DNA of 42,361 nucleotides from Actinomycetota bacterium (GTDB taxonomy: Bacteria; Actinomycetota; Acidimicrobiia; Spongiisociales; UBA11373): assembly GCA_043805935.1 (NCBI GenBank), contig JAZDHM010000012.1, forward strand, positions 1 to 42,361, given 5' to 3'. The translations under genes and the position numbers were made by a program. The notes below the pieces were generated by a model. The model saw only the letters and a program-made list of their open reading frames with translations, was not told where the DNA came from and made no database searches. Positions 6,425 through 42,361 of the stretch are shown piece after piece; positions within the stretch are counted from its first letter, which is position 1; each line of letters starts with the position of its first letter.

Positions 6425-6452
6425 CTGGCAACTGGTAACTGGCAACGGGCAA
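6425..6452. repeat. Tandem heptamer array CTGGCAA / CTGGTAA / CTGGCAA / CGGGCAA
   Basis: Four consecutive 7-nt units read directly, located 42 nt downstream of the first array. Confidence 0.85.
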
Positions 6453-6709
6453 CGAGATTGGCGCCCAATCACCGAGCGGCGCGACGGCGCGTGGTAACCT
6501 CCCGGGCCGGAGGGCGCTGTTCGACGGGCTCCGTCTGTCGCCGCTCACCCATCGAAACCGGAGCACCCGAGTGCGCACACCTCACCTCGTCGAACGCATG
6601 ACCCGACCGACCTCGTCGGGCTGTCAGCGACGGGTGGGCGCCTCCGTGCCTCTGGCGACAGCCGTTCACGAGAGCCGCCCGCGCACGCGGGCGCCGAAGG
6701 GATCTTTCC

Positions 6710-8284: not shown

Positions 8285-8305
8285 CGGGTGACGGGAAACG
8301 GGAAA
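8285..8305. repeat. Heptamer array CGGGTGA / CGGGAAA / CGGGAAA, the reverse complement of the GTTTCCC unit
   Basis: Read directly, about 45 nt after the rne stop. GGGAAAC is the exact complement of the unit repeated upstream of rne. Confidence 0.8.
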
Positions 8306-8330
8306 CGCCGCTCGCGACCCGGTTATCATG

Positions 8331-13346: not shown

Positions 13347-13435
13347 CGCACTAGCTCGTGCGAGGGAGCCGCGGTGACCCTCAAGACGGCTGCGCCCGAC
13401 GCCGATATCAGGGGGAGTTACCAGAAGAGGTGCCG

Positions 13436-13825
13436 ATGGCACAGCGAGTGCTGGTGGTCGAGGATTCCGCCGTCATCCAGCGGCTGATCTCGGTGTGCTT
13501 GCGCCCCGCCGGGGTCGACGTCGAGACCCGCGCCGACGGCCCCACCGGTCTCGAGGCCGCCCTCACCACGCGGCCCGACCTGCTCATCTTGGACGTCGGC
13601 CTGCCTCGCATGGACGGATGGGAGGTCCTCGAACGCATCCGCTCCGATGTCCGGACGCGGGCGATGAAGGTGCTCGTGCTCACTGCCCACGCCCAGGAAG
13701 AAACGCGCGAACGCGCCGACCGGGGTGGGGCGGACGCCTTCCTGACCAAGCCGTTCCGTCCCGACGATCTGCGCAGCGTCGCCCTGCAGTTGCTCGCCGG
13801 ACCGGCCGCCGTCGCCACCGCCTGA
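13436..13825 (+). CDS. Single-domain response regulator (CheY-like receiver)
   Basis: 129 aa: VLVVEDS acidic pocket, LLILDVGLPRMDG (phospho-acceptor Asp), VLVLTAH (Thr) and FLTKPF (Lys). An AGAAGAGG Shine-Dalgarno precedes ATG 13436. There is no output domain and no kinase in the window. Confidence 0.85.
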   Translation: MAQRVLVVEDSAVIQRLISVCLRPAGVDVETRADGPTGLEAALTTRPDLLILDVGLPRMDGWEVLERIRSDVRTRAMKVLVLTAHAQEETRERADRGGADAFLTKPFRPDDLRSVALQLLAGPAAVATA

Positions 13826-13826
13826 G

Positions 13827-13854
13827 GCAGACAGCAGAGGGCAGAGAGCAGACG
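13827..13854. repeat. Heptamer array GCAGACA GCAGAGG GCAGAGA GCAGACG
   Basis: Four consecutive units starting 2 nt after the receiver stop codon. The unit and orientation match the 13305-13346 array. Confidence 0.85.
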
Positions 13855-16201: not shown

Positions 16202-16477
16202 GTGTCGCGGGTGATCGTGCTCACCGACGTGTTCGTCATCGCTGCCGGGACGTCGCGCCGCCACGTCAAGACGCTGGCCGACGAGGTCGAATTCCGTCTC
16301 AAGGGGATCGGCCGCCGGCCCTTGCGCCGCGAGGGGGTCGAGGACGCTACCTGGCTCCTCCTCGACTTCGGCGACGTTGTGATCCACATCTTCGACCAGG
16401 AGACCAGGCGCTACTACGACCTCGAGCGGTTGTGGTCCGACGCCCCCCGGCTCGAGTTCGTCCCCACCTCCCGGTAG
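16202..16477 (+). CDS. rsfS: Ribosome silencing factor RsfS (Iojap family); the true start is probably upstream
   Basis: VFVIAAGTSRRHVKTLADEV and DFGDVVIHIFDQETRRYYDLERLW are canonical RsfS motifs. The conserved IDDKKGLDVVLLDV segment lies in frame upstream of the first ATG/GTG/TTG (16202). The real start is therefore probably a non-canonical codon between 16103 and 16118. Confidence 0.85.
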   Translation: MSRVIVLTDVFVIAAGTSRRHVKTLADEVEFRLKGIGRRPLRREGVEDATWLLLDFGDVVIHIFDQETRRYYDLERLWSDAPRLEFVPTSR

Positions 16478-16526
16478 CCACCGTCCCGCATCCGGCGTCT
16501 CCGGTTCGGGTGATACCGTCCCGCCC

Positions 16527-17579
16527 ATGTGGGCGATGGTCGTCAAGGAGTTCCGCCAGGTGCGCCGGGACCGCCGCACCCTGGCGATGATGATTCTGAT
16601 GCCGGTCCTGCTGCTGGTGATCTTCGGCTACGCCGCCAGCTTTGACGTGGCGAACGTGAATGTCGCTCTGATGGGCCCCGGCGCCGAGGCGCTGCGCGAC
16701 CGTGTCCCCGACCGGCTGGAGGTGACCACGGTCGACCCGGCCGGCGACCGGGACGCCGCCGTCGACCTGCTCGAGCGGGGCCGGGTGGTGGCGGTGATCG
16801 TCGCCACCGACGACTCCCAGACCGTGCTCGTGGACGGGTCGGAGCTGTTCCCGGCACGGGCCGTGGTGCAGACCGTGACCGCGGCGCGCCAGGAGATGCC
16901 CGGGCTCACCCTCGAGGTGCTGTTCAACCCCACGCTCGACACGTCGGCAGTGCTCGTGCCCGGCCTGGGCGGACTCATCCTGCTCTTCGTGGGGACGGTG
17001 ATCACCAGCCTCGGCGTCGTCCGCGAGCGGCAGGCGGGCACGCTCGAGCAGCTGGCGGTGATGCCGCTGCGGCCGCGCGACGTGTTCGTCGGGAAGGTCG
17101 CCCCCTACTTCCTGGTGGCCGCCGTCGACCTGACCGTGGTGCTCGTGGTGGGGACGCTGCTGTTCGACGTGCCGTTCAACGGATCGGTGCTCACCCTCGC
17201 CCTCGGGTCGGTGCTGTTCCTCTTCGTGACGCTGGGGGTCGGGGTGGTGATATCCAGCGTGTCGGAGAACCAGGGCCAGGCGATCCAGCTGGCGCTGATG
17301 ACGCTGCTCCCGCAGGTGCTGCTCTCGGGGATCATCTTCCCGCTTTCGTCGATGGGACCCGGGGTGCGGTGGATCGGATATCTGCTCCCGCTCACTTACT
17401 TCAACCAGGTGGCGAGAGGGGTGATGGTCCGGGGGGCGCCGATCGACTCGCTGCTCGTCCCGCTCGGGCTGCTCGCCCTGCTCGGGGCGATCGCGTTCAC
17501 CCTGGCGGTGGCGCGGTTCCGTCGGTTCCTCACCGTCGGCGGTGGCCGCGGCGGCTCCGGCGGCGGCATTCCGGCATGA
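16527..17579 (+). CDS. ABC-2 type transporter permease
   Basis: 350 aa. The N-terminal KEFRQVRRDRRTLAMMILMPVLLL is typical of ABC-2 permeases, followed by a large extracytoplasmic loop and about 5 C-terminal TM segments. Confidence 0.85.
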   Translation: MWAMVVKEFRQVRRDRRTLAMMILMPVLLLVIFGYAASFDVANVNVALMGPGAEALRDRVPDRLEVTTVDPAGDRDAAVDLLERGRVVAVIVATDDSQTVLVDGSELFPARAVVQTVTAARQEMPGLTLEVLFNPTLDTSAVLVPGLGGLILLFVGTVITSLGVVRERQAGTLEQLAVMPLRPRDVFVGKVAPYFLVAAVDLTVVLVVGTLLFDVPFNGSVLTLALGSVLFLFVTLGVGVVISSVSENQGQAIQLALMTLLPQVLLSGIIFPLSSMGPGVRWIGYLLPLTYFNQVARGVMVRGAPIDSLLVPLGLLALLGAIAFTLAVARFRRFLTVGGGRGGSGGGIPA

Positions 17580-18394
17580 ACGGTTGGGGGCTGGCCGAGG
17601 TGACGGTCCGCCTCGGTTCCACCACCGCCCTCGACCGGGTGTCCCTGGCGGTCGACCCTGGTGTGGTGGCGGTGGTGGTCGGGGGCGACGGGGCCGGCAA
17701 GACCACCCTCGCCCGCACCCTCGCCGGCCTGGTGGCGGTGTACTCAGGCACGGTCGGCCGCCCCGAGGGGCGGGTGGGATACCAGCCGGCCGGGTCGGGC
17801 GTCTGGCCCGATCTGACCGTCACCGAAAACCTGTCGTTCGTGGCATCGGCGTTCCGCATTGGGGCCGCGGCCGCCGCCCGCCGCATGGCCGCACTGCTGG
17901 AGGCGACCGGCCTGGGTGCGGCCCGGGACCGCCTGGGGGCGAACCTGTCCGGGGGGATGCGCCGGAAGCTCGGGGTGACGATGGCACTCCTCAGCGAGCC
18001 GGAGATGGTGGTGTTGGACGAGCCGACCACCGGGGTCGATCCGGTGAGCCGGTACGAGCTGTGGCGGCTGGTGTCGCAGACCGCGGCCGCCGGCGCCGCC
18101 GTGGTGATGACCACCACGTACCTCGACGAGGCGGAGCGCGCCGGCACGATCCTGGCGCTCGAGGCGGGGAGGACGCTGGCGGCGGGCACCCCGGAGGAGG
18201 TGCGCGGGTCGTTGCGCGGTGCGGTGTACGCCGTCGACCGCGCCTCACAGGCCGATCACCAGTGGCGGCGCGGCGCCGCGTGGCGAATCTGGACCGAGGG
18301 GAGCCCACCGGCGGGGGCGAGGCGGGTCGACGCCGATCTGGGAGACGTGCTCATCGCCGCCTCCCTGGCCGGTGGGGGAGAGGGCTCACGGTGA
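17576..18394 (+). CDS. ABC transporter ATP-binding protein (first of two)
   Basis: ATGA overlap with the permease stop. Walker A GGDGAGKTT, signature LSGGMRRKL, Walker B MVVLDEPT. Confidence 0.85.
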   Translation: MNGWGLAEVTVRLGSTTALDRVSLAVDPGVVAVVVGGDGAGKTTLARTLAGLVAVYSGTVGRPEGRVGYQPAGSGVWPDLTVTENLSFVASAFRIGAAAAARRMAALLEATGLGAARDRLGANLSGGMRRKLGVTMALLSEPEMVVLDEPTTGVDPVSRYELWRLVSQTAAAGAAVVMTTTYLDEAERAGTILALEAGRTLAAGTPEEVRGSLRGAVYAVDRASQADHQWRRGAAWRIWTEGSPPAGARRVDADLGDVLIAASLAGGGEGSR

Positions 18395-19245
18395 GGGCCC
18401 TCGTCGATGTCCGCGACGTGGTCAAGCGCTTCGGGGACCTGGCGGCGGTCGACGGGGTGTCGCTCCAGGTGGGCGCCGGAGAGGTGGTCGGTCTCCTCGG
18501 GGCGAACGGGGCCGGGAAGACCACGCTGCTGCGGGTGCTGCTCGGGCTGTTGCGGCCCACGACCGGAACCGTTCTGCTGTTCGACGCCCCCGCCGACCGC
18601 ACCGCGTTGCGCCGGGTCGGGTACGTGCCCCAGGGCCTAGGCCTGTACACCGACCTGACCGTCACCGAGAACCTGGCCTTCCGGGCGCGCCTGTTCGGTG
18701 CGCCGGTCCCCCCGATCCCCGATGACCTCCGGTCGCGGCTCGGGGATGTGGTGGGCGGGCTGTCGGTCGGGTTCCAGCGTCGGGTTGCCTTCTTCGCCGC
18801 CCTGATGCATCGCCCGGCGCTCCTCGTCCTCGACGAGCCGACCTCGGGGGTCGGCCCACTGGGGCGGGCCCGGCTGTGGGACACGATCCGCCAGGCGGCC
18901 GACGAGGGGGCCGGGGTGCTGGTGACGACCCATCACCTCGAGGAGGCCGAGGAGTGCGACCGGCTGGTGATGATGGCCGAGGGCCGGGTGGCCGCCGAGG
19001 GGTCGATCGGCGACATCATCGGCAGTCTCCAGGCCGTGGAGGTCGACACGGTCGACTGGCGCCGCGCGTTGGTGGCGCTGGAAGACGCCGGCGTGCCGGT
19101 GGCGTTGGCCGGGGCGTCGCTGCGAGTGCCGGGAGGAGACCCCGAAGCGGTGCGGGCCATCCTCGCGGCGGCCGGGGTGACGGCGCTTGTCACCCGGCGC
19201 CCGGCCACCCTGGAGGAGAAGTTCGTCTCGCTGGCCCGGCGGTGA
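18391..19245 (+). CDS. ABC transporter ATP-binding protein (second; degenerate signature motif)
   Basis: GTGA overlap with the previous stop. Walker A GANGAGKTT, Walker B LLVLDEPT, H-loop TTHH. The signature motif is degenerate (LSVGFQRR). Confidence 0.85.
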   Translation: MRALVDVRDVVKRFGDLAAVDGVSLQVGAGEVVGLLGANGAGKTTLLRVLLGLLRPTTGTVLLFDAPADRTALRRVGYVPQGLGLYTDLTVTENLAFRARLFGAPVPPIPDDLRSRLGDVVGGLSVGFQRRVAFFAALMHRPALLVLDEPTSGVGPLGRARLWDTIRQAADEGAGVLVTTHHLEEAEECDRLVMMAEGRVAAEGSIGDIIGSLQAVEVDTVDWRRALVALEDAGVPVALAGASLRVPGGDPEAVRAILAAAGVTALVTRRPATLEEKFVSLARR

Positions 19246-19271
19246 ATCTCCGGGCGGTGGCCACCCCGTCT

Positions 19272-20477
19272 TCAAGCCGGCACGAACGACGCCACTGCCT
19301 CGAGGTGGAAGGTCTGGGGGAACAGGTCCACCGGCACCGCTCGGTCGAGGCGATACCCGGCGTCGGCGAGGTGCCGGGAGTCACGGGCGAGCGATGCCGG
19401 GTCGCATGACACGTAGGCGATGGCCCGCGGCCCGCCGTCGACCACGGCGTGGACCCCCTCGACGCCGAGCCCGGTGCGGGGCGGATCGACCACCGCGACC
19501 TGCCAGCGCTCCTTTCCGTGAAGGCCCGCCCGTTCGACCGGAGCGGCGATGATCGAATGCTCGATGCCACCGGCCGTCAGGTTGTGGACGAGGTCGAGCA
19601 CGCCGAGCGGGCTCGCCTCGATCGCCACCACCCGGCCCGCCTTGCGCCCGACGGTGGCGCCGAACAGGCCGCCCCCGGCGTAGGCGTCGAGGAGCGTCTC
19701 GGTGGGTTGCGGGTCCAGCGCCTCTTCGACCAGCCGGACCAGCGCCTCGGCCCCCGGGGTGTTGTTCTGGAAGAAGGCGTCCCCGGTGATCCGCAACGGG
19801 ACGCCGGCCACGGTTTCGGTGATCGCCCCGGCGCCGACCACCGGGCGGAGGACGTCGCCGTCGCGCCGTGACACCAGGCAACCCCATGCGGCGGCGCCGT
19901 CGGGAATCGGCCCGTGGACGACGGCGAGGGTGTCGCCGCTGGTCGAGGCGGCGCGCACGGTCAGCCGCCGCGCCTCGCCGAGATCGCCGATCCGATCGAC
20001 GGTCTCGGCGAGGAGAGGATGGAGGACGAGGCAGTTGGTGATCGGTTCGAGGTCGTGGCTGTGGCGGCGGTGGAACGCCGGCCGCCCGTCGAGCACCTCG
20101 AAGTCGACTCGGTTGCGGTACCCGTAGGGCGGTGCCACCGCCACGGTCGCCCGCACCGGGGGATCGGCCAGCCGCCCCAGGTGGGCGAGCTGCCCGGTGA
20201 GGATCGAGCGCTTCCATTCGAGCTGAGCGGGGTAGTCGGCGAACTGCCACTGACATCCGCCGCAAGTGTCGAAGTGGCGGCATGGCGGTTCCACACGCTG
20301 CGGGGAGGCCTCGAGTACCCGGCCCAGGGCGACCCGGGCCCATGAGGCGGTGGAGCGGACCACCTCGCCGACGACCCGCTCACCGGGCATCGCCCCGTCG
20401 ACGAAGTGCACCTTGCCGTCGAGACGGGCAACGGCCTCCCCGCCATGGGCGACATCGGTGGGGCGGAGCTCGATCAT
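19272..20477 (-). CDS. RNA (uracil-5-)-methyltransferase, RlmD/RumA/TrmA family
   Basis: N-terminal TRAM-like domain and an Fe-S cysteine cluster (CRHFDTCGGCQWQ). SAM-binding motif LLDAYAGGGLFG and catalytic-Cys motif AYVSCDPASLARD. Confidence 0.85.
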   Translation of the reverse strand: MIELRPTDVAHGGEAVARLDGKVHFVDGAMPGERVVGEVVRSTASWARVALGRVLEASPQRVEPPCRHFDTCGGCQWQFADYPAQLEWKRSILTGQLAHLGRLADPPVRATVAVAPPYGYRNRVDFEVLDGRPAFHRRHSHDLEPITNCLVLHPLLAETVDRIGDLGEARRLTVRAASTSGDTLAVVHGPIPDGAAAWGCLVSRRDGDVLRPVVGAGAITETVAGVPLRITGDAFFQNNTPGAEALVRLVEEALDPQPTETLLDAYAGGGLFGATVGRKAGRVVAIEASPLGVLDLVHNLTAGGIEHSIIAAPVERAGLHGKERWQVAVVDPPRTGLGVEGVHAVVDGGPRAIAYVSCDPASLARDSRHLADAGYRLDRAVPVDLFPQTFHLEAVASFVPA

Positions 20478-20504: not shown

Positions 20505-22076
20505 TCAGACCTCCGACTCGGCCGCCGGCCGTTCTGTGGAGCCGGTCTGGCTCGGTCCGACGGCGACGGTGTCCCGCAGCGGGAGCTCCGGCATGACGGA
20601 CAGCAGCACGATCGCGATCAGCACGATCGGCACGGCCACCAGGAATCCGAGGGTGATCGAGTCGGAGAAGGCCTGGATCACTCCGGTCTGGGTCGCCGGT
20701 GGGAGTTGTGCGATCAGTCCCGGGGAGCGGGCCAGCTGGTCGATCGGGACGTCGGTCATGGCCGACGTCGGCACCAGGCGTGCCAGGTTGCTCGCCAGGC
20801 TCCCGGAGAGGACCGCACCGAACAGGGCCGCCCCAAAGGCGCCGCCGAGGGAGCGGAAGAACGTGTTGGACGACGTGGCGACGCCGAGGTCGGAGATCTC
20901 CACCGCGTTCTGGACGGCGATGACCAGCACCTGCATGACGAATCCGATCCCGAGCCCGAGCAGCACCATGTACGCCATCACGACGACGGCGCCGGTGGCG
21001 GGGCTCATCGTCGAGAGCAAGGAGAGGGCCACTGCGGTGATCACCGTCCCCATGATCGGATACCGCTTGTAGCGCCCGGTCCTGGTGATGATGCGGCCCG
21101 TTGCGATCGAGCTGGTCAACAGACCTGCCATCAGGGGGACGAGCAGCAGCCCCGAGTTGGTGGCGCTCACCCCGCTGACCACTTGGAGGAAGAGCGGAAG
21201 GAAGATGATCGAGCCGAACATGCTGAGGCCGACCACGAACGAAGCCACCGACGTGAGGGCGAACACCCGGTTGCGGAAGAGCCGGAGCGGGAGGATCGGC
21301 TCGGCGGCGCGGCGCTCCTGAAGCAGGAACAGGCCAAGCAGCACGAGGGCGGCGGCGCCGAGGCCGACGATCGTTGTGGATCCCCACTCGTACTCACTAC
21401 CGCCCCACACGGTGACCAGGAGGGCACAGGAGACGGCGGCGACGAGCAAGGTCGCTCCGGGGTAGTCGATCCGGTGCTGTCGGCGGGCGACCGGAACGTG
21501 CAGCACCAGGCCGGTGACCACCAGCGCCGCCAAGCCGACCGGGAGGTTGATGTAGAACACCCAGCGCCAGGTCAGGTGGTCGACGAAGAACCCTCCGAGG
21601 AGCGGCCCGGCCACCGAGGACACGCCGAACACGGAGCCGATGTAGCCCTGGTACTTGCCCCGCTCGCGCGGGGAAAGGATGTCACCGATGATCGTGAGTG
21701 CCATCACGATCAGGCCCCCGGCTCCGAGGCCCTGGATTCCTCTGAACGCGATCAGCTGTGCCATCGACTGGGAGAGTCCCGACAGGATCGAACCGATCAG
21801 GAACACCACGATGGCGAACTGGAAGACGATCTTGCGCCCGTAGAGATCGGAGACCTTCCCGTACAGGGGTGCGCTCGCCGTCGAGGTGAGCAGATAGGCG
21901 GTGACCACCCACGAGAGGTGCTCGAGACCGCCGAGGTCGCCGACGATGGTGGGAAGGGCGGTGGCAACGATGGTCTGGTCGAGGGCGGCGAGGAGGATGC
22001 CGAGCATCAGCGCGCTGAACACCACCAGGATCTGGCGGTGGCTCATCTTCTCGCCCGGTTCGGCGATCGTCTCCAT
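20505..22076 (-). CDS. MFS transporter, DHA2 (EmrB/QacA-like, 14-TMS) family
   Basis: 523 aa. [13 protein letters not shown], motif A-like [12 protein letters not shown], and [14 protein letters not shown]. The protein is hydrophobic throughout. Confidence 0.9.
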
Positions 22077-22134
22077 GCGCGCTCACTCGGTGGCGTCGGG
22101 TGTGGACTCGAAAGGCGTCGAGGGTCGCCCTTCG

Positions 22135-28485: not shown

Positions 28486-28518
28486 AGTTCTGAGTCTTGA
28501 GTTCTGAGTTCTGAGTAA
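28483..28518. repeat. AT-rich heptamer array TGAAGTTC TGAGTCT TGAGTTC TGAGTTC TGAGTAA
   Basis: Read directly. It begins at the CPBP stop codon, and every unit carries a TGA. Confidence 0.85.
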
Positions 28519-28559
28519 GACCTTGGTTTGTCTTACTCACAACTCATGACCCATGACTC
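28492..28559. other. Extended imperfect stem-loop (core GAGTAAGAC-N8-GTCTTACTC) formed by the two opposed heptamer arrays
   Basis: A perfect 9-bp core stem (28513-21 / 28530-38) extends to about 30 bp with a few mismatches, because the right-hand array approximates the inverted copy of the left-hand array. Confidence 0.6.
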
Positions 28560-28600
28560 TCTTGCCTCTTACTCATGACTCATGACTCACGACTCATGAC
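28537..28600. repeat. Heptamer array based on TCATGAC (9 units, 5 perfect or near-perfect, one interruption)
   Basis: TCACAAC TCATGAC CCATGAC TCTCTTG CCTCTTAC TCATGAC TCATGAC TCACGAC TCATGAC. The hexamer TCATGA is itself palindromic. Confidence 0.85.
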
Positions 28601-28630
28601 TCTTGTGCCGGGCTGTGCCTGGCACAAGAG
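28600..28630 (+). terminator. Perfect 10-bp hairpin CTCTTGTGCC-N11-GGCACAAGAG
   Basis: Read directly, between the CPBP gene and comEA. There is no U-tract, so function is inferred. Confidence 0.4.
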
Positions 28631-28673: not shown

Positions 28674-29207
28674 GTGGAACGCTCGTGGATCGCCGCCGGA
28701 GCCGTCGCGCTCGTCGCCCTCGCCGCGGCGGTGTTGCTGTGGCCCGACCCGACGACACCGCCGCCGATCGAGATCGTCGCGGCGCGGCCGCCCGACGCCA
28801 CGATCACCGTGCACGTGTCGGGGGCGGTCGCCCGTCCGGGCCTGGTGTCACTGCCCGCCGACGCCCGGGTCGCCGACGCGGTGCTCGCCGCTGGAGGCGC
28901 CCTCCCCGGGGCGGTGCTCTCCGGCCTGAACCTGGCGGCCCCCCTGGCCGACGGGGAGCAGCTGATCGTCCCACTCATCGACCCCTGGGGAGGGGCGACG
29001 TCCGTGGGCGACGGGAAGGTGCATGTCAACACCGCCGACGTGGTGGCGCTGCAGGACCTCCCCGGAGTGGGCCCCGTGCTTGCGCAGCGCATCGTCGACT
29101 ACCGCAACGAGTTTGGCCCCTTCACGGTGATAGAGGACCTGCTGGACGTGCCCGGGATCGGTGAAGCGAAGCTGGCAGCGCTGCGGGACGTGGTGATGGT
29201 GCCCTGA
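28674..29207 (+). CDS. comEA: ComEA-family DNA-binding competence protein (helix-hairpin-helix)
   Basis: N-terminal TM, a SLBB-like middle region (TVHVSGAVARPGLVSLPADARVADAV), and a C-terminal tandem HhH (LQDLPGVGPVLAQRIVDYR ... LLDVPGIGEAKLAAL). The start is GTG. Confidence 0.85.
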   Translation: MERSWIAAGAVALVALAAAVLLWPDPTTPPPIEIVAARPPDATITVHVSGAVARPGLVSLPADARVADAVLAAGGALPGAVLSGLNLAAPLADGEQLIVPLIDPWGGATSVGDGKVHVNTADVVALQDLPGVGPVLAQRIVDYRNEFGPFTVIEDLLDVPGIGEAKLAALRDVVMVP

Positions 29208-29269
29208 GCCGGCTCGGGGTCCCTCGGGGCGCCGACGCCCTCGCCGCCGGGTCGGCGGCCCTCATCTGG

Positions 29270-31366
29270 GTGGGTGCCTCGGGCAACCGGGCGGCGGTGG
29301 CGGTGGTGTGCCTCGGCCTCGTGCTCGCCCGCCGGTGGTTCCCCCGGTGGGTGGCGGCGCTCGTCCTGGTGGCGGTCGGCGCCTTCTCCGCGGGCGCCGC
29401 CGGCGCCCGCGAGACGATCCCCGAGCAGTGGCTGCCCGACGGGAAGGCGGTGATCACCGGGATCGTAGGGTCCGATCCGTCCGGTCCCGCTGGGTTCGAG
29501 GGGTTCACGCTCCGCCCGGATCACCTCTTCCTCGCCGGGTCGTGGCAGCCGTGGGCGGGGCCGCGTCTGTACGTGCGCGGCTCGGCGGCGGTGGCGGTGG
29601 GCGAGCCGGCCCTGGTGCGGGGTGTCGTGGAGCCGGCCGCCTTCCGGGTGCGGGCTGGTCCCGTGGCCGGGGTGGTCACCGCCGAGCGGATCGAGCGGCT
29701 CGGCCCGGCGCCCAACGTGCTCATGCGGGTCGCCAACCGCCTGCGAAGCCGGGTGCTCGGCTCCCTCGACGTCGTGGCCACTCGCCCCGAGGGCGCCCTC
29801 GTGGCCGGGTTCCTGATCGGGGACACCCGCGGCCTGCCCGACGCCGACTACGAGGCGCTTCGCCTTGCCGGCCTGAGCCATTTCGTCGCCGTGTCGGGGA
29901 GCAACGTCGCCCTGTTCCTGGCGGCCTGGTGGCTGGCGACCGGGCCGCTCGGCTGGGGGCCGCGCCGGCGGGCGGTGATCGGGCTGATCGGCATCGCCGT
30001 GTTCGCCGTGGTGACCAGATGGGAGCCATCGGTGGTGAGGGCATCGGTGATGGCGGCGACGGTGCTCGCCGGCAAGCTCGCCGGGGTGCCGATTGCCCCC
30101 TGGTCGGCACTCGGCTGGGCGGTGACGGCCGTGGTGGCTGTGTCGGGCGGGGTCGTCCACGAGGTGGGGTTCCAACTCTCGGTCGCCGCCACCGCCGGGA
30201 TCCTCGCCGGGGGGCCGCTGTGGGCGGGCCGTCGCCGGCGCTGGTTGTGGACCACCCTGGGGGCGACCCTGTCCGCTCAGGCAGCCGTCGCCCCGATCCT
30301 CCTCCACCACTTCGGGACGGTCCCGCTCATGGCGCCGCTCACCAACGTGATCGCCGCTCCGCTGGTGGTGGTGTCGACGGCCCTCGGCGGCGCCGGGGCG
30401 CTGGTCGGGATCGCCCCCGTGGTGCGGGCGGCGGCCCGGGTGGCCGCCGTCGTTCTGGCGGTGGCCCGCCGGGCGGCCGATCTTCCCCAGCTGCACACCG
30501 CCGGGGTGGCCGTCATCGCCGGGGGCTGCCTCACTGGGTGGCGGCTGCGCGCCCTGCGGCCGCTGCTGGCGATCGGCTGCGTGCTGGCGGTGGGCGCTTC
30601 CCTCCTCCCCGCCGGGCATCCCCACGGGCCCACCGTGGCGTTTCTCGACGTCGGCCAGGGAGACGCCGCCATCATCACCGGGCCCTCGGGGGAGGTGATC
30701 GTCCTGGACGGCGGGCCCGACCCGGCGGTGATGCGCGACTACCTGCGCGCCCGGGGGATCCGCCACGTAGACCTGCTCGTAGTGTCGCACCGCCATGCCG
30801 ACCACACCACCGGCCTGGTCGGGATCACTGCGGTCGCCCGGGTGGACCGGCTGTGGTACCCGCAACAGCTCGGGGAGGGCTCCCCGCTCGACGACATCGT
30901 GGCCGAGGTGGCGGCGGGCGGCGGTGCGGTCTCGACACCGGCTTTGGGCACGACCGCGACGGTCGGGGCCTTCGACCTCGAGGTGCTGGGCCCGCTGCGC
31001 CGCTACGCCGCGCCCAACGACGGTTCGATCGTGGTGCGGGTCACCGCCGCCGGGGTCTCGGTGCTGTTCACCGGTGACATCGAGGCCATCGCCCAGCAGG
31101 ACCTCGGGCCGGTCCGCGCCGACGTCATGAAGGTCCCGCACCAGGGATCGATCACCAGCGACCTCGACTGGCTGGCGGCGAGCGCCCCTTCCCTTGCCGT
31201 GATCAGCGTCGGCCCCAACGACGTTGGGCATCCGTCCGAGGCGGTGATCGCGACGCTCACCGAGGCTGGGGTGACGGTCATGCGCACCGACCGTGACGGC
31301 ACCGTGACGGTCCGCCTCGACCGGATCGCCCTGCACGAGCCGGCCGCACTACCGTCGGCACGGTGA
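29270..31366 (+). CDS. comEC: ComEC/Rec2 DNA internalisation protein with a metallo-beta-lactamase domain
   Basis: Polytopic competence domain (LRLAGLSHFVAVSGSNVAL) and a C-terminal MBL domain (VAFLDVGQGDA ... VSHRHADHTTGL ... KVPHQGS). The start at GTG 29270 is uncertain. Confidence 0.9.
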   Translation: MGASGNRAAVAVVCLGLVLARRWFPRWVAALVLVAVGAFSAGAAGARETIPEQWLPDGKAVITGIVGSDPSGPAGFEGFTLRPDHLFLAGSWQPWAGPRLYVRGSAAVAVGEPALVRGVVEPAAFRVRAGPVAGVVTAERIERLGPAPNVLMRVANRLRSRVLGSLDVVATRPEGALVAGFLIGDTRGLPDADYEALRLAGLSHFVAVSGSNVALFLAAWWLATGPLGWGPRRRAVIGLIGIAVFAVVTRWEPSVVRASVMAATVLAGKLAGVPIAPWSALGWAVTAVVAVSGGVVHEVGFQLSVAATAGILAGGPLWAGRRRRWLWTTLGATLSAQAAVAPILLHHFGTVPLMAPLTNVIAAPLVVVSTALGGAGALVGIAPVVRAAARVAAVVLAVARRAADLPQLHTAGVAVIAGGCLTGWRLRALRPLLAIGCVLAVGASLLPAGHPHGPTVAFLDVGQGDAAIITGPSGEVIVLDGGPDPAVMRDYLRARGIRHVDLLVVSHRHADHTTGLVGITAVARVDRLWYPQQLGEGSPLDDIVAEVAAGGGAVSTPALGTTATVGAFDLEVLGPLRRYAAPNDGSIVVRVTAAGVSVLFTGDIEAIAQQDLGPVRADVMKVPHQGSITSDLDWLAASAPSLAVISVGPNDVGHPSEAVIATLTEAGVTVMRTDRDGTVTVRLDRIALHEPAALPSAR

Positions 31367-32355
31367 AGCCCGTCCACGCGGTCGTCGGCCCCAACGATGC
31401 GGGACCGGGGGAGCGCCAGGAGATGCTGGACCGGGCACGGCACCTGCTCGAGCAGGCGGGGGTCGACGACATCGACCGGTTCGACATTCCCGGCCGCGGC
31501 GCAGGCGAGGAATCCGACGGCACCCTCCGGCCCGAGGTGGAGCGGCTGATCCCCGCCCTGCAGAGTGGGTCGCTCTTCGGTGGCCGCCGCGGGGTGATGG
31601 TGGTTGACGCCCACCAACTGCAGGCGGCCGAGGTGGAGGTGGTTGTCGACCTCACCGCCGCCATCGACGGCGAATCGGTGGTCCTGGTGTTCGTCGCCGA
31701 CGGATCCATTCCGGGCAGGCTGGGGAAGATGGTCAAGGCCGATGGCGAGGTCCACCCCGTGCAGAAGATGCGCGAGAAGGACGCCGCCGAGTGGCTCGCC
31801 AGGACGGCCCGGGAGCGGAAGATGCGCCTCGACGGCGAGGCCACCGCGACCTTGCTGCAGCGGTTCGGGTCCGACATCGCCTCCCTCGGCCAGGCGCTCG
31901 ACCAGCTTGCCTCGATCGAGGGCCCGATCACCGGTGCCGAGGTGGCGGCCCGGTTCTCCAACCGGCCGGATGAACCGATGTGGCATTACGCCGACGCCCT
32001 CGCCGCCGGCGACACCGGGGAGGCGCTGCGACGGTTGTCGGACTTCCTCACCCACGGGCACCCGCTGGCGCTCCTGACGTTCATCGAGAACGACCTCCGG
32101 CGGCGTGCCCTGGCGGCGGCCGCGCCGACGGTCGAGGTGTTCGCGGCATGGATCGGCGCCCGGCCGGACTACTACCCGGTGACCAAGGCGTGGAAGCTGC
32201 GGACGGCGGCAACCGACGTGGAGCTGCGACGGGCGTTGGATGCCGTCGCCCGGGCCGACGCCACCCTGAAGTCGGCGCCGGAGGCGCTGCACCGGCTGAC
32301 GATGGAGCGGCTCACGGTCGCCCTGTCGCGGTGGTATTCGCCCCGAGGACGCTGA
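31363..32355 (+). CDS. holA: DNA polymerase III delta subunit
   Basis: GTGA overlap with the comEC stop. At 330 aa its size, helical C-terminal part and the conserved comEA-comEC-holA order support the call. I recognised no strong catalytic motif. Confidence 0.7.
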   Translation: MKPVHAVVGPNDAGPGERQEMLDRARHLLEQAGVDDIDRFDIPGRGAGEESDGTLRPEVERLIPALQSGSLFGGRRGVMVVDAHQLQAAEVEVVVDLTAAIDGESVVLVFVADGSIPGRLGKMVKADGEVHPVQKMREKDAAEWLARTARERKMRLDGEATATLLQRFGSDIASLGQALDQLASIEGPITGAEVAARFSNRPDEPMWHYADALAAGDTGEALRRLSDFLTHGHPLALLTFIENDLRRRALAAAAPTVEVFAAWIGARPDYYPVTKAWKLRTAATDVELRRALDAVARADATLKSAPEALHRLTMERLTVALSRWYSPRGR

Positions 32356-32426
32356 CACGATGGACCGCGCGCACACTCGGGAATCGATCGGCGGAGTTGG
32401 TGGTTCATGGCGGCCGTGACGACCAT

Positions 32427-33188
32427 ATGACGATCGAGATCCCCGCCAGCCGCCTCGCCCGCCTTCGCAGCATCAACTGGATGCTCGGGCTGCTCCATGC
32501 CGCCCAGGGGGTGGTCGTGCTCGCCCTCGGCAACGGTTTCGCCCTTCCGGTCACCGGGAGTTTCATGGCGGGGCCTCCGGGAAGCGGGCTAGTGACCACC
32601 CGGACCCTGTTCCACGTGTCGTTCGCCGCCGGGGTTGCCGCGTTCTTGTTCGTGTCGGCGATCGCCCATCTCACCATCGCCACTCCGCGGGTGTTCCGCT
32701 GGTATGTCGCCGGTCTCGCCGGTGGCCGGAACTACGCCAGGTGGTTCGAGTACTCGATAAGCGCGTCAGTGATGGTGGTGCTCATCGCCATGCTCACCGG
32801 GATCTCCGACGTGGCCGCTCTCGGGGCGATCTTTGGAGTGAATGCCGCCATGATCCTGTTCGGGCTCGTCCAGGAGCGCTACGAGCGCCCGGGTGGCAGC
32901 CTGACGCCGTTCTGGCTGGGTGCCCTCGTCGGGATCGTCCCCTGGCTCGTGATCGGGGTTTATCTGATCTCGCCGGGGGTGGCCGCCCAGCCGCCGGCCT
33001 TCGTGTACGCCATCTACGTGTCGCTGTTCCTGTTCTTCAACAGCTTCGCGGTCAACATGTGGCTCCAATACCGCAAGGTCGGCAAATGGCTCGACTACGT
33101 GTACGGGGAGACCGTCTACGCGGTCCTGAGCCTGGTGGCGAAGTCGCTCCTCGCCTGGCAGGTGTTCGCCGGGACGCTCGCGTCGTGA
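32427..33188 (+). CDS. Heliorhodopsin (retinal-binding 7-TM photoreceptor with inverted topology)
   Basis: 253 aa and colinear with the prototype 48C12 as I recall it: LLHAAQ (H24), FALPVTGSFMAGPPG, AIAHL (H81), RWFEYSISASVMVVLIA (counterion E108), IFGVNAAMILFG, PFWLGALVGIVPW, FLFFNSFAV, and SLVAKSLLAWQVFAGTL (Schiff-base K239, AAG at 33141-33143). Confidence 0.9.
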   Translation: MTIEIPASRLARLRSINWMLGLLHAAQGVVVLALGNGFALPVTGSFMAGPPGSGLVTTRTLFHVSFAAGVAAFLFVSAIAHLTIATPRVFRWYVAGLAGGRNYARWFEYSISASVMVVLIAMLTGISDVAALGAIFGVNAAMILFGLVQERYERPGGSLTPFWLGALVGIVPWLVIGVYLISPGVAAQPPAFVYAIYVSLFLFFNSFAVNMWLQYRKVGKWLDYVYGETVYAVLSLVAKSLLAWQVFAGTLAS

Positions 33189-33205
33189 TGGCGGCCGGCG
33201 CCGGG

Positions 33206-33688
33206 CTAACCCTCGAACGGGCGCACCGCGACGATCTCCACCTCGAACATACCGCCGGGGGCTTCGTAGGAGACCGTTGAACCGATGCGGGTGCCGAGGA
33301 GCGCCGCCCCGAGCGGGCTGGAGGGGGAGGCGAGCACCATGCCGGGCAGCTTGTTCTCCTGGGGTGCGACGAACACGTCCATCTCGCCGCCGTCGGGCCG
33401 CCGCACGGTTACCACCGTGCCCACCTCGACGACGTCGCCGGCGGCCGCCTCCGACACTTGAGCGGTGTCGAGGCTCGCCTGGATCTTGCGGATGCGCGCC
33501 TCCAACAGCCCCTGCTCGTTCTTGGCGGCGTCGTAGTCGGCGTTCTCGCGGATGTCCCCGTGGGAGCGTGCCTCGGCGATCCGCTCGGCAATGCGGTGGC
33601 GCCCCTCGGTGGTGAGGTACTGCAACTCCTCGACGAGCTTCTGGTGAGCCGCGGGAGAAAGCCAGGTCGTGGGACCGTCGGTCATCAT
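33206..33688 (-). CDS. greA: Transcription elongation factor GreA
   Basis: 160 aa from MMTDG. Hallmark HGDIRENADYDAAKNEQG, an N-terminal coiled coil and a C-terminal FKBP-like domain. It lies 14 nt downstream of rpsT on the same strand. Confidence 0.9.
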   Translation of the reverse strand: MMTDGPTTWLSPAAHQKLVEELQYLTTEGRHRIAERIAEARSHGDIRENADYDAAKNEQGLLEARIRKIQASLDTAQVSEAAAGDVVEVGTVVTVRRPDGGEMDVFVAPQENKLPGMVLASPSSPLGAALLGTRIGSTVSYEAPGGMFEVEIVAVRPFEG

Positions 33689-33702
33689 GATGGGAGCCGG
33701 GC

Positions 33703-33969
33703 TCAGCCGTTGAGCTGGCGAGCCCTGCGGGTCAGGCGCGACTTTTGACGCGCGGCGGTGCGCTTGTGGAGGACGCCTTTGGAGACGGCGGAATCGATGC
33801 GCCGCTGGGCGAGGCGGAGGGAGGTCCCGGTGGCCTCGGCGTCGCCGGCGGCGATGGCGGCGGCGGTCGCTTTCGAGCGCGTCTTCAGCTCGGAGCGGAT
33901 GGCCTGGTTGCGGGCCTTGCGCTTTACCGTCTGGCGGTTGCGCTTGATCTGAGATGCGATGTTGGCCAT
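33703..33969 (-). CDS. rpsT: 30S ribosomal protein S20
   Basis: [30 protein letters not shown] is the canonical S20 N-terminus, at 88 aa. It is divergent from lepA, as in other Actinobacteria. Confidence 0.9.
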
Positions 33970-34032
33970 GTCGAGACGATCTGTGAGGTGGGGGAACGGC
34001 GGAACGATAGCAGTCCGACGCGCGACGGTACA

Positions 34033-35854
<1,822 letters not shown>

Positions 35855-35865
<11 letters not shown>

Positions 35866-39899: not shown

Positions 39900-40880
39900 T
39901 TGACGCAAGCCTCTCTCAACGAGGTCACGTTCCGCGTCCCCGGTGACCACTTCATGCTGGCCCTCTTGGGGGAGCGCGACGCGTTCCTCCGCCTGGTCGA
40001 GGACGCCTACCTCGACGCCCAGATCGTCGCCCGCGGGGACGAGGTGCGGATCAGCGGCCCGGACGCCACGACCCGGCTGGTCAAGACGACGCTCGAGGAG
40101 CTGCTGGTCCTGGTGCGCGAAGGCCAGACGCTCGACGCCGACCGCGTCCAGCGGGTGATCGAGCTGGTCAAGGCCGACATCACCAGCCCGTCGGCGGTGT
40201 TCAGCGACGGGGTGACGGTCGGCCGGGGCAAGGTGATCCACCCCAAGACCCTCAACCAGAAGCGGTACCTCGACGCCATCCGCCGCAACACCGTCGTGTT
40301 CGGCATCGGCCCGGCGGGGACCGGCAAGACCTACCTGGCGATGGCCCTCGCCGTGGCCGGTCTGCAGACCGGGACCGTGACCAGGCTGGTCCTCACCAGG
40401 CCGGCGGTGGAGGCGGGCGAGCGACTCGGGTTCCTCCCCGGCGACCTCGCCGCCAAGGTGGACCCCTACCTGCGCCCTCTGTACGACGCGCTGTACGACA
40501 TGCTCGGGCCCGACGAGACTCAGCGCCTGATGGAGCGGGGCACCATCGAGATCGCCCCCCTCGCCTACATGCGCGGCCGGACCCTCAACGACGCGTTCGT
40601 CGTGCTCGACGAGGCCCAGAACACGTCGCCGGAGCAGATGAAGATGTTCCTCACCCGTCTCGGGTTCAACTCGAAGATGGTGATCACCGGAGACGTCACC
40701 CAGGTGGACCTGCCCAGCGGCAAGGCGTCGGGGTTGCGTCAGGTCGGCGACGTGCTCGGGGACATCCCCGGGGTGGCCTTCATCACCCTCGGCGCCGAAG
40801 ACGTCGTCCGCCATCGGATCGTCGCCACGATCGTGGAGGCGTACCGCATGTACGACGAGCGGACCAAGAGGCCGGAATGA
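39900..40880 (+). CDS. phoH: PhoH-like ATPase (PhoH/YbeZ)
   Basis: Walker A GPAGTGKTYLA, RPAVEAGERLGFLPGDL, Walker B VVLDEAQN and GDVTQVDLP. The likely start is TTG 39900 (GAGGAT upstream); ATG 39843 is the alternative. Confidence 0.9.
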   Translation: MTQASLNEVTFRVPGDHFMLALLGERDAFLRLVEDAYLDAQIVARGDEVRISGPDATTRLVKTTLEELLVLVREGQTLDADRVQRVIELVKADITSPSAVFSDGVTVGRGKVIHPKTLNQKRYLDAIRRNTVVFGIGPAGTGKTYLAMALAVAGLQTGTVTRLVLTRPAVEAGERLGFLPGDLAAKVDPYLRPLYDALYDMLGPDETQRLMERGTIEIAPLAYMRGRTLNDAFVVLDEAQNTSPEQMKMFLTRLGFNSKMVITGDVTQVDLPSGKASGLRQVGDVLGDIPGVAFITLGAEDVVRHRIVATIVEAYRMYDERTKRPE

Positions 40881-42361
40881 GGATCGCCTCGCGGCTCTCG
40901 TCGATGGCCAAGACCGGCATCATCGCCGCCACCCTGGTGGCCACCGTCCTGGCTCTGGTGATCGGCCGCGACCCCGGGCCGGCGCCGATCGTGCTGAGCG
41001 TGGGCGAGCCGGCCCCCCAGGCGTTCTATGCCACGGTGAAGGTGGACGTGCCCGACGTCGACGAGACGGAGCGGCAGAAGGCCGCCGCCGCCGCCGCGGT
41101 CGAGGACGTCTACTCGGGTGACACCCAGGTCACCGAGACCGTGCTCGCCAGCATCGCCGAATTCTTCGCGGACGTCCGCAAGGCGGCCGAGCCGGTGGTG
41201 ATCGAGGTGGAGGACCCCGACTCGATCACGCCGTCGACCACCCAGGCGACCACCACCACCGCCGGAACCACCGGGACCTCGGAAGGTTCGTCGGAGACGA
41301 CGACGCCCGGGGAGACGACCACCACCACGCTGGCGACCACGACCACCACCGTCCCTCCCGAGCCGCCGCCGGTCGAGGAGCAGATCGCCCAGCTGGAGGT
41401 GCTCCACCCCCTGTTGCGGGACACGACGATCGAAGCCATGGTCGGGTTGGTCAACGCCGATCGCGACCTGGCCGTGAGCGACCAGCTGCTCCCGATCGCC
41501 CAGAGGGCGGCGCTCGACACCGCCGAGTCCTACCTGCTGGACGGGATCAGGTCGACCGAGCTGGCGTCGATCAAGGGCCGGCTGGTGACCTCGCCGCGCC
41601 CGCTCGTCCTCATCCCCGAGGACATGCGGACCGCCGTGGAGAACGCCGTCGCCGACCTGCTGTCGGTGTCGCTCCAGGCGAACGAGTTCGAAGACGAGAA
41701 CGCCACCCAGGCCGCCCGGCTCGAGGCACAGAATGCCGTGGCCGAACAGGTCAAGTCGTACGCGGCCGGGGAGCTGATCGTCGACCTCGGCCAGCGGGTC
41801 GAGGCCGTGCAGCTGCAGGCGATCGATGAGCTGGAGCTGCGCGTCGTCGGGGAGCCGGTGGCGCCGGTCCGCGCGCTTGGAGCCATCGCCATCCTCGTGG
41901 TGTTGCTGGCGATGGTCTTCCTGGGGAGGGTCACGGCCGACTACTGGCGGCGCCCCAAGATGGTTGGCCTGTTCGGGTTGCTCGTCGTACTGGCCGCCAT
42001 CGCCTCCCGGGTGCCGGCCCTCGTCGCCCGAGACCGGGTGGAGCTCGGGTTCCTCCTCCCGGCGGCTCTCTTCGGCTACCTCGCCTCCAACCTGTTCGAC
42101 GCCCGCGTCGCCGTGCTCATGGCGATCCCGGTGGCGGCGTTCACCGCCCTCACCACCGGGGACCTGGCCCTCGTGGTGTTCGCGGCAGTGGCGACGCTGG
42201 CGCCGATCCCGCTCGTGTCGGCGGTGTCGTCGCGTGCCCAGCTGAATCTCGCGGTCGTGTTCTCTGCCGTCATCCAGGTGCCGCTGGTCGCCGCCCTGGC
42301 CTGGTTCTTCTACGGCCCCGACGCCGTCGTGCTGTCGATGGTGTGGGGCTTTCTCAGCGGG
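40877..42361 (+). CDS. 7TM-HD membrane protein, PgpH-like (5' partial; runs off the window)
   Basis: Open frame from ATG 40877 (ATGA overlap with the phoH stop) to the window end, 495 codons. It has an N-terminal TM, an extracellular domain ending in GELIVDLGQRVEAVQLQAIDELEL (7TMR-HDED-like), then the start of a multi-TM block. The phoH-(7TM-HD)-ybeY position supports the call, but the HD domain itself is not in the window. Confidence 0.6.
   Translation, partial: MRIASRLSSMAKTGIIAATLVATVLALVIGRDPGPAPIVLSVGEPAPQAFYATVKVDVPDVDETERQKAAAAAAVEDVYSGDTQVTETVLASIAEFFADVRKAAEPVVIEVEDPDSITPSTTQATTTTAGTTGTSEGSSETTTPGETTTTTLATTTTTVPPEPPPVEEQIAQLEVLHPLLRDTTIEAMVGLVNADRDLAVSDQLLPIAQRAALDTAESYLLDGIRSTELASIKGRLVTSPRPLVLIPEDMRTAVENAVADLLSVSLQANEFEDENATQAARLEAQNAVAEQVKSYAAGELIVDLGQRVEAVQLQAIDELELRVVGEPVAPVRALGAIAILVVLLAMVFLGRVTADYWRRPKMVGLFGLLVVLAAIASRVPALVARDRVELGFLLPAALFGYLASNLFDARVAVLMAIPVAAFTALTTGDLALVVFAAVATLAPIPLVSAVSSRAQLNLAVVFSAVIQVPLVAALAWFFYGPDAVVLSMVWGFLSG

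What the first reader, a model, noticed from the sequence alone, without database searches (positions are those of the whole stretch)
32427..33188. Heliorhodopsin gene in the conserved holA | rpsT housekeeping junction, with no retinal or signalling partners in view
The 253-aa ORF carries the heliorhodopsin hallmarks in the right order. These are His in TM-A (H24) and TM-B (H81), the FALPVTGSFMAGPPG extracellular hairpin segment, the counterion Glu in RWFEYSISAS (E108), FLFFNSFAV, and the Schiff-base Lys in SLVAKSLLAWQVF (K239). Heliorhodopsins were described in 2018, have inverted topology, do not pump ions, and have no agreed physiological role; the proposed partners differ between lineages. 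Here the gene stands alone, 71 nt after holA and convergent (17-nt gap) with a greA-rpsT unit. Together with greA it interrupts the comEA-comEC-holA / rpsT / lepA order conserved in Actinobacteria. No blh or crt retinal-synthesis genes, histidine kinase or transducer occur anywhere in the 42 kb. The chromophore source and the downstream effector are therefore both open questions.
Basis: partly seen in the sequence, partly recalled or inferred. Interest (0 to 1): 0.7.

Follow-up and report, generated by a model that had tools for sequence, protein, structure and literature searches.

The report
Ordinary stand-alone heliorhodopsin gene, lineage-specific insertion
The ORF is a genuine, selectively maintained heliorhodopsin (a light-sensing retinal membrane protein), but it is a typical member of a large known family. 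Its position beside holA and greA is a quirk of one narrow lineage, not a clue to function.

Summary
Window 32427-33188 (+) encodes a 253-aa heliorhodopsin (Pfam PF18761 E=1e-93; NCBIfam HeR equivalog 309 bits against a cutoff of 100; 50% identical to 48C12). H24, H81, E108 and K239 align to 48C12 H23, H80, E107 and K241. The gene lies 71 nt after holA and 17 nt from convergent greA. No blh, crt, rhodopsin, histidine-kinase or transducer domain was found in the window ORFs scanned.

greA was not inserted with HeR. holA-><greA<rpsT->lepA is the common arrangement in this clade: 39 of 51 informative holA lineages have greA after holA without HeR. HeR lies between holA and greA in only four species-level lineages (HeR at least 77% identical). 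Equally close sister lineages have the same flanks and no HeR. HeR relatives at 70-75% identity, and 79 of 80 species-representative genomes, place HeR elsewhere with no recurrent neighbour.

Stand-alone HeR genes and the absence of blh nearby are already published as the norm. dN/dS of 0.15-0.23 shows the gene is functional. The most likely role is a light-switched regulator of an unlinked partner. Interest is low.

The parts
32427..33188 (+). Heliorhodopsin CDS (253 aa plus stop). H24 and H81 are the TM-A/TM-B histidines, E108 the counterion and K239 the Schiff-base lysine.
   Evidence: GC3 of 0.89 matches the neighbouring genes. dN/dS is 0.15-0.23 against three orthologues at the same locus.
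32356..32426 (+). 71-nt holA-HeR spacer, holding the presumed HeR ribosome-binding and promoter region or serving as a read-through path from comEA-comEC-holA.
   Evidence: Gap measured; it is 27-114 nt in orthologous loci. No sigma-70-type consensus promoter was found. Whether HeR is co-transcribed with holA is untested.
33189..33205 (.). 17-nt spacer between the convergent HeR and greA stop codons.
   Evidence: the spacer is 1-153 nt in orthologues. No terminator-like site lies here. Folding of 33140-33260 is no better than shuffles, z = -0.3.
31363..32355 (+). holA (DNA polymerase III delta subunit), the upstream same-strand neighbour.
   Evidence: NCBIfam TIGR01128 99.1 bits, cutoff 80. 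No Pfam hit at E<1e-3.
33206..33688 (-). greA (transcript cleavage factor), the convergent neighbour and an older resident of this junction.
   Evidence: Pfam GreA_GreB_N plus GreA_GreB. TIGR01462 129 bits, just under the 139 cutoff. greA follows holA without HeR in 39 of 51 informative related lineages.
33703..33969 (-). rpsT (ribosomal protein S20).
   Evidence: Pfam Ribosomal_S20p E=1e-24.
34033..35865 (+). lepA (EF4), divergent from rpsT.
   Evidence: Pfam GTP_EFTU, LepA_C and EFG_C.
28674..31366 (+). comEA (28674-29207) and comEC (29270-31366), upstream of holA on the same strand.
   Evidence: Pfam HHH_3/SLBB, and Competence plus Lactamase_B.

Best explanation
The ORF encodes a bona fide, functional heliorhodopsin of a monoderm actinobacterium. 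It is a seven-helix retinal protein inserted with its N-terminus in the cytoplasm.

How it works (inferred from the family). Retinal is bound as a Schiff base to K239. E108 is the counterion and H24/H81 form the proton-accepting group. Light isomerises the retinal and produces a long-lived intermediate. That intermediate changes the conformation of the positively charged cytoplasmic loops (R88/R91/R101/R105, R151/R154, R216/K217/K220). The loops bind and modulate a partner protein encoded elsewhere in the genome, either an enzyme or a transporter. Such partners have been shown experimentally for glutamine synthetase, photolyase and an ABC exporter in other HeRs. No ion pumping is expected.

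Genomic history. The gene is a single-gene, lineage-specific insertion into an older holA | greA-rpsT junction. It probably occurred once, near the base of a genus- or family-level cluster, and was later lost in some members. It has no functional tie to holA, greA or rpsT. Retinal must come from unlinked genes, an unknown pathway or the environment, as is usual for HeR genes.

What is shown and what is inferred. Shown here: family identity, key residues, purifying selection, native codon usage, and non-conservation of the neighbourhood. Inferred: photochemistry, topology, regulatory mode and partner.
For: Identity. PF18761 E=1e-93. NF038020 equivalog 309 bits against a cutoff of 100. 50% identity to 48C12 and 48% to TaHeR, with H/H/E/K plus R105, Y109, E150, Y224, E228 and S235 all aligned to their counterparts. 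These residues are invariant across 31 relatives.

Functional gene. dN/dS is 0.15-0.23 between four orthologues at this locus. GC3 of 0.89 equals that of the neighbours.

Topology. There are 12 K/R in the predicted cytoplasmic segments against 1 in the outer ones for an N-in orientation.

Insertion history. holA-><greA<rpsT without HeR occurs in 39 of 51 informative lineages, and HeR in 2. HeR-plus and HeR-minus members are about equidistant (holA 79-84%, lepA 89-93% identity) and interleaved in a concatenated tree. HeR relatives at 77-82% identity share the junction, while those at 70-75% sit in a different context.

No conserved neighbour. None of 79 other species-representative loci has holA, greA, rpsT or lepA within 10 kb. 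No neighbour cluster recurs in more than 4 of 21 Acidimicrobiia loci.

Literature. AbHeR binds glutamine synthetase through positively charged intracellular-loop residues (K216 is critical) and raises its activity in light (PMC9529153); the window protein has R216/K217 in that loop. HeR also modulates an ABC transporter, and that study reports 38.6% of HeR genes as co-operonic overall, with 18.8% given for Actinobacteria (PMC11109279). A photolyase helper role is reported in PMC9769723. blh is rare near HeR (10.1101/2021.02.16.431466).
Against: No partner is identified, so the regulatory mode is extrapolated from three experimentally studied HeRs whose partner genes are adjacent. Here no partner gene is adjacent.

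The retinal source is unknown because the rest of the genome was not available.

Co-transcription with holA (same strand, 71 nt apart) cannot be excluded.

Other roles have been proposed for HeRs: proton transport in viral HeRs (PMC9448325), lipid remodelling through DegV/DUF2177 (10.1101/2021.02.16.431466), oxidative-stress signalling (PMC8612252) and carotenoid-antenna light harvesting (10.1101/2025.11.27.691015).

The tree of HeR-plus and HeR-minus lineages is poorly resolved, so one gain with losses versus a later gain is not settled.
Confidence: 0.72

Rival explanations
1. HeR is functionally coupled to its neighbours, giving light control of transcription (GreA), replication (HolA) or translation (S20). 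The coupling would work through direct binding or through convergent, overlapping transcription with greA-rpsT.
For: The arrangement holA-HeR-<greA-<rpsT is kept in four species-level lineages with short spacers. The 17-nt convergent gap has no recognisable terminator, so the transcripts could overlap.
Against: The adjacency is confined to HeR relatives at least 77% identical. Sister lineages with the same flanks lack HeR. 79 of 80 species-representative HeR loci have none of these genes within 10 kb. greA occupied the junction before HeR arrived. Published neighbour surveys do not list GreA, HolA or S20 among recurrent HeR partners (PMC11109279, PMC8612252).
Confidence: 0.04
2. HeR acts on the membrane or on lipids, or as an energy or transport device rather than a regulator. 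Candidate roles are light-gated proton transport as in viral V2HeR3, lipid remodelling with DegV/DUF2177, or light harvesting with a carotenoid antenna.
For: These roles are proposed or shown for other HeRs (PMC9448325; 10.1101/2021.02.16.431466; 10.1101/2025.11.27.691015). The absence of an adjacent partner fits a self-contained activity.
Against: No DegV, DUF2177 or DUF1295 domain was found in the window ORFs scanned. The protein belongs to the bacterial 48C12-like group (50% identity), which the literature read here describes as lacking ion-pumping activity (PMC8612252 introduction; PMC9529153 introduction). It is not close to the viral proton-transporting HeRs.
Confidence: 0.15
3. The gene is a recently transferred or decaying passenger with no present function, for example an apoprotein in an organism without retinal.
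For: Presence and absence vary among close relatives. No retinal genes are in view.
Against: dN/dS is 0.15-0.23 while dS is 0.7-0.8 across four lineages. All catalytic and pocket residues are intact. Codon usage is native. There are no integrase, IS or flanking direct repeats in the window.
Confidence: 0.04

Closest known systems
Heliorhodopsin 48C12 (PDB 6su3, 6uh3, 9ljj), from a freshwater actinobacterial fosmid
   Same: E=2e-72 and 50% identity over 242 residues. H23, H80, E107 and K241 are conserved, as are R104, Y108, E149, Y226, E230 and S237. The A-B hairpin motif and the FLFFNSF block are the same.
   Different: The query has Met (M211) where 48C12 has Q213; TaHeR also has Met there. 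The E-F loop is 2 residues shorter and the D-E loop 1 residue shorter. No biophysical data exist for this protein.
AbHeR of Actinobacteria bacterium IMCC26103, which binds and activates glutamine synthetase (PMC9529153)
   Same: It is an actinobacterial HeR. It has positively charged intracellular loops, and the critical position K216 corresponds to R216/K217 here by shared numbering of the C-terminal region. It offers the presumed regulatory mode.
   Different: AbHeR sits in an operon with glnA, and its host carries crtEBIY, blh and a proton pump. Here no GS, crt or blh gene is within 42 kb.
OcHeR-OmrDE (ABC exporter) and TfHeR-photolyase pairs (PMC11109279, PMC9769723)
   Same: They belong to the same family and show regulation through protein-protein contact.
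   Different: In those cases the partner genes are adjacent. The nearest transporter genes here (an ABC-2 permease at 16383-17579 and an MFS gene at 20505-22082) are more than 10 kb away, and no photolyase was found.
TaHeR (Thermoplasmatales archaeon; PDB 6is6, 7u55)
   Same: E=3e-59 and 48% identity, with all key residues aligned.
   Different: It has an archaeal host and a different A-B loop sequence.

Membership tests
Heliorhodopsin (Pfam PF18761 / NCBIfam NF038020) | Full-length match to the family HMM above the curated cutoff | tested here: met
   PF18761: 313.5 bits (cutoff 26.7), profile positions 1-242 of 242. NF038020 equivalog: 309.4 bits (cutoff 100).
Heliorhodopsin (Pfam PF18761 / NCBIfam NF038020) | Schiff-base lysine in TM-G, aligned to K241 of 48C12 | tested here: met
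   K239 aligns to K241 of 48C12 and to the TaHeR lysine. It is invariant in 31 relatives.
Heliorhodopsin (Pfam PF18761 / NCBIfam NF038020) | Single Glu counterion in TM-C (E107 of 48C12) | tested here: met
   E108 aligns to E107 and is invariant.
Heliorhodopsin (Pfam PF18761 / NCBIfam NF038020) | Histidine pair in TM-A and TM-B (H23/H80 of 48C12) | tested here: met
   H24 aligns to H23 and H81 to H80; both are invariant.
Heliorhodopsin (Pfam PF18761 / NCBIfam NF038020) | Inverted topology (N-terminus cytoplasmic) | tested here: met
   This is a positive-inside count only. There are 12 K/R in the N-terminus and the B-C, D-E and F-G loops, against 1 in the A-B, C-D and E-F loops and the C-terminus. 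It is a prediction, not a measurement.
Heliorhodopsin (Pfam PF18761 / NCBIfam NF038020) | Binds all-trans retinal, has a slow photocycle and does not pump ions | not testable with these tools
   Requires expression and spectroscopy.
Heliorhodopsin (Pfam PF18761 / NCBIfam NF038020) | Monoderm host | tested here: inconclusive
   The closest named genome is 'Actinobacteria bacterium RBG_16_68_21'. The window carries a BldD-like regulator and actinobacterial-type synteny. The cell envelope itself was not assessed.
HeR-partner operons (GS, NAD+ synthetase, photolyase, MerR, TerC, ABC transporter, SDR, alpha/beta hydrolase, DUF2177, DUF2238, DegV, glutaredoxin) | Partner gene adjacent to HeR on the same strand or in the same operon | tested here: not met
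   The immediate neighbours are holA (same strand, 71 nt away) and convergent greA. None of the listed families was found in the window ORFs scanned. The lists come from PMC11109279, PMC8612252 and 10.1101/2021.02.16.431466.
Mobile element or genomic island | Integrase or transposase, flanking direct repeats or target duplication, atypical composition | tested here: not met
   No such domains were found in the window. No flanking direct repeats lie around HeR in the window. GC3 is 0.89, as in the neighbours.

The most novel reading that the evidence does not exclude
The holA | greA spacer may be a recurrent landing and excision site for single accessory genes in this actinobacterial clade. It holds HeR in one cluster and a Flp-pilin-like, poly-Thr protein in another. 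Turnover could be promoted by the fast-evolving heptamer tandem arrays that populate intergenic spacers in these genomes. In one relative such arrays flank HeR on both sides in direct orientation. If so, the HeR-plus and HeR-minus sister lineages would be natural knock-outs for finding what co-varies with HeR.
Probability: 0.2. Interest if true: 0.35.

Novelty: new member of a known kind. Interest (0 to 1): 0.15.

Why it matters
It matters little on its own. The gene adds one more uncharacterised actinobacterial heliorhodopsin to a family with thousands of members. Its stand-alone context and the lack of nearby retinal genes are the published norm.

The modest value lies in the comparative result. 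Closely related lineages share an otherwise identical holA-greA-rpsT-lepA junction and differ only by the presence of HeR. With complete genomes or isolates, these pairs could be used to look for genes or phenotypes that co-vary with HeR, which bears on the still open question of HeR partners.

Tried and rejected
Promoter and terminator scan of 31900-34200: no promoter-like site, and the one terminator-like site lies inside the HeR CDS (expected 1.0 by chance).

Folding of the convergent 3' region: no better than shuffles.

All-against-all clustering of ORFs within 5 kb of HeR in 80 species-representative loci: no neighbour family recurs widely. The largest, an SDR/NmrA-like gene, is in 13-19 mostly Chloroflexota loci, and none occurs in more than 4 of 21 Acidimicrobiia loci.

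Search for direct repeats flanking HeR as an insertion scar: none in the window, L164 or L167; only L085 has heptamer arrays on both sides.

Search for HeR remnants in HeR-less spacers: tblastn found none, and the spacers are only 55-172 nt.

Bootstrap values from the NJ tree are unreliable because of a rooting mismatch in the support calculation. I use only the pairwise identities and the observation that the six taxa are nearly equidistant.

Paper searches failed five times before working. The Environmental Microbiology version of Chazan et al. is not held, so the bioRxiv version was used.

I did not run structure prediction, because solved homologues at 50% identity make it redundant. I ran no further search on taxonomy or on Blh, because neither could be tied to this genome.

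Full report
1. The observation

The ORF at 32427-33188 (+) starts with ATG, ends with TGA and encodes 253 aa. It matches Pfam Heliorhodopsin PF18761 end to end (E=1.1e-93, 313 bits). It also matches the NCBIfam equivalog NF038020 'heliorhodopsin HeR' (309 bits, cutoff 100). The closest solved structures are 48C12 (6su3, 6uh3, 9ljj; E=2e-72, 50% identity) and TaHeR (6is6; E=3e-59, 48% identity).

H24, H81, E108 and K239 align to H23, H80, E107 and K241 of 48C12. So do R105, Y109, E150, Y224, E228 and S235, with R104, Y108, E149, Y226, E230 and S237. All are invariant in an alignment of 31 relatives.

2. Surroundings in the window

Pfam and NCBIfam scans of about 40 ORFs give the following map:
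- mreBCD, PBP2, rodA, tdk, RNase E/G, rplU and obg
- an AAA plus VWA (CoxE-like) pair
- a lone response-regulator receiver (13355-13825)
- nadD, a LytR_C protein and an ABC-2 permease
- three unassigned minus-strand ORFs
- a tRNA methyltransferase, an MFS transporter, a GNAT, a nitroreductase and a DUF1003 protein
- leuS, a CAAX protease, comEA, comEC and holA (TIGR01128, 99 bits against a cutoff of 80)
- HeR, then <greA and <rpsT, then lepA, hemW, hrcA, dnaJ, a BldD-like regulator, phoH and a 7TM-HD receptor

No beta-carotene dioxygenase, carotenoid-synthesis, type-1 rhodopsin, histidine-kinase, MCP, DegV, DUF2177, glutamine synthetase or photolyase domain was detected.

HeR has GC3 of 0.89, like its neighbours. 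No consensus promoter or terminator lies in its flanks. The convergent 3' region does not fold better than shuffled sequence. No direct repeats flank it.

3. Is the neighbourhood conserved?

Three independent samplings give the same answer.

(a) HeR relatives by identity. Proteins 82%, 80% and 77% identical (P0005, P0007 and P0017) all lie in comEA-comEC-holA-HeR-<greA-<rpsT-lepA. P0007 is from 'Actinobacteria bacterium RBG_16_68_21'. Proteins 75% and 70% identical (P0019, P0029) lie in an unrelated context of Tricorn-like, luciferase-like, YkuD and aminotransferase genes.

(b) Species-representative genomes. Eighty loci with the best HeR matches were retrieved (55-80% identity; Acidimicrobiia, Nanopelagicales, Demequinaceae and many Chloroflexota). 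Only RBG_16_68_21 has holA, greA, rpsT, lepA or comEC within 10 kb of HeR. Clustering of all flanking ORFs found no neighbour shared by more than 4 of 21 Acidimicrobiia loci. Lineage-local synteny does exist, for example five Demequinaceae loci share a context of their own.

(c) Searching from the other side, with holA as the query against metagenome contigs. This gave 80 loci, equal to 67 lineages at 95% nucleotide identity or more, of which 51 are informative:
- 32 have holA followed directly by <greA<rpsT
- 7 have a different 0.7-0.85 kb gene between holA and greA
- 10 have holA-><rpsT with no greA
- 2 have HeR (the window's own species and the RBG_16_68_21 type)

greA is therefore the older, widespread occupant of this junction, and HeR alone is the lineage-specific addition.

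4. Gain and loss

The HeR-plus loci are the window, L164/L165, L085 and L167. The HeR-minus loci L086/L087 and L088 are about equidistant from them (holA 79-84%, lepA 89-93% identity). All six form one tight cluster in a concatenated holA, greA, rpsT and lepA tree, with HeR-plus and HeR-minus members interleaved (the support values there are unreliable). The HeR-minus spacers are 55-172 nt and contain no HeR remnant.

HeR divergence among the four carriers (77-82% identity, dS 0.7-0.8) is similar to that of holA. This fits vertical descent from one insertion followed by loss in some lineages, although a slightly later single gain is not excluded. dN/dS of 0.15-0.23 shows purifying selection wherever the gene is kept.

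5. How it most likely works

The sequence carries every residue that defines the HeR photochemical core. A positive-inside count of 12 against 1 supports the N-in topology.

In the literature read here, HeRs are described as lacking ion-pumping activity and having long photocycles (PMC8612252 introduction; PMC9529153 introduction). Three have been shown to bind and light-modulate a partner:
- glutamine synthetase in an actinobacterium, through positively charged intracellular-loop residues, K216 being critical (PMC9529153)
- an ABC exporter (PMC11109279)
- photolyase (PMC9769723)

The window protein keeps a basic F-G loop (R216, K217, K220) and basic B-C and D-E loops. I therefore favour a light-switched regulator of an unlinked partner. 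The photochemistry and the partner are inferences, not results. Viral-type proton transport (PMC9448325), lipid-related roles (10.1101/2021.02.16.431466), oxidative-stress signalling (PMC8612252) and antenna-assisted light harvesting (10.1101/2025.11.27.691015) remain possible alternatives.

6. Comparison with what is known

- blh is rare among HeR neighbours. It co-occurs with HeR mostly when another rhodopsin is present, which prompted the idea of an unknown retinal route (10.1101/2021.02.16.431466).
- Only 38.6% of HeR genes are predicted to share an operon with a neighbour, with 18.8% given for Actinobacteria (PMC11109279).
- Neither these surveys nor PMC8612252 list GreA, HolA or S20 among recurrent partners.

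This gene is thus a regular stand-alone actinobacterial HeR.

7. Verdict

The identity is confirmed. This is a new, uncharacterised member of a known kind, of low interest. The only mildly useful extra is the presence/absence polymorphism of HeR at an otherwise identical junction among close relatives.

Noticed in passing
window 6356-6385, 6425-6453, 8291-8307, 13827-13852, 28486-28516, 28542-28602: Heptamer (period-7) tandem arrays of 2.4-8.6 copies sit in intergenic spacers: tdk|RNase E/G, before rplU, after the response regulator, and CAAX|comEA. Each has a different unit (GTTTCCC, CTGGCAA, ACGGGAA, GCAGAGA, AGTTCTG, ACTCATG). The orthologous CAAX|comEA spacer in L085 also has heptamer arrays, but with other units, so they evolve fast. 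Intergenic heptamer repeats are described in Beggiatoaceae and Nostoc (PMC4679880, PMC4692102). I found no description for Actinobacteria in one search.
   Followed up: partly
L085 8018-8074 and 8929-8988: In the RBG_16_68_21-type relative, HeR is flanked on both sides by related heptamer arrays (TTGCGCA, GCGAATC, GCGCATT) in direct orientation, 79% alike over 56 nt. This is a possible substrate for deletion of the gene. The window's own HeR flanks have no such arrays.
   Followed up: partly
L142 7121-7792 (-); also L147, L150, L151, L152, L155, L156, L157 between holA and greA: In more distant relatives (holA 51-55% identical) the same holA|greA gap holds a minus-strand ORF of about 200-260 aa. 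It has an Flp-pilin-like N-terminus (LRSQxGASLVEYALxxSL), a long poly-Thr linker and a conserved C-terminal domain. A different accessory gene therefore occupies the same junction.
   Followed up: partly
L086/L087 (holA-greA spacer 55 nt) and L088 (172 nt): These sister lineages are as close to the window as the HeR-bearing ones (holA 79-82%, lepA 89-91% identity) but lack HeR at the junction. They are natural presence/absence comparators.
   Followed up: yes
window 13355-13825 (+) and about 40880-42361 (+): A stand-alone response-regulator receiver domain gene has no adjacent kinase. A 7TM-HD (7TMR-HDED) receptor runs off the window end. Both are far from HeR and no link is suggested.
   Followed up: no
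window 17744-19380 (-): Three consecutive minus-strand ORFs with coding-like GC3 have no Pfam or NCBIfam match.
   Followed up: no
L101, L106, L107: In these relatives rpsT is followed by hrcA and no lepA was detected nearby, unlike the usual rpsT|lepA-hemW-hrcA order.
   Followed up: no
L009-L083 (one search list): Chloroflexota HeRs (62-67% identical) are interleaved with Acidimicrobiia and other actinobacterial HeRs (60-67%) in the ranking of relatives. Similarity therefore does not follow phylum boundaries, which hints at inter-phylum transfer of HeR genes.
   Followed up: no
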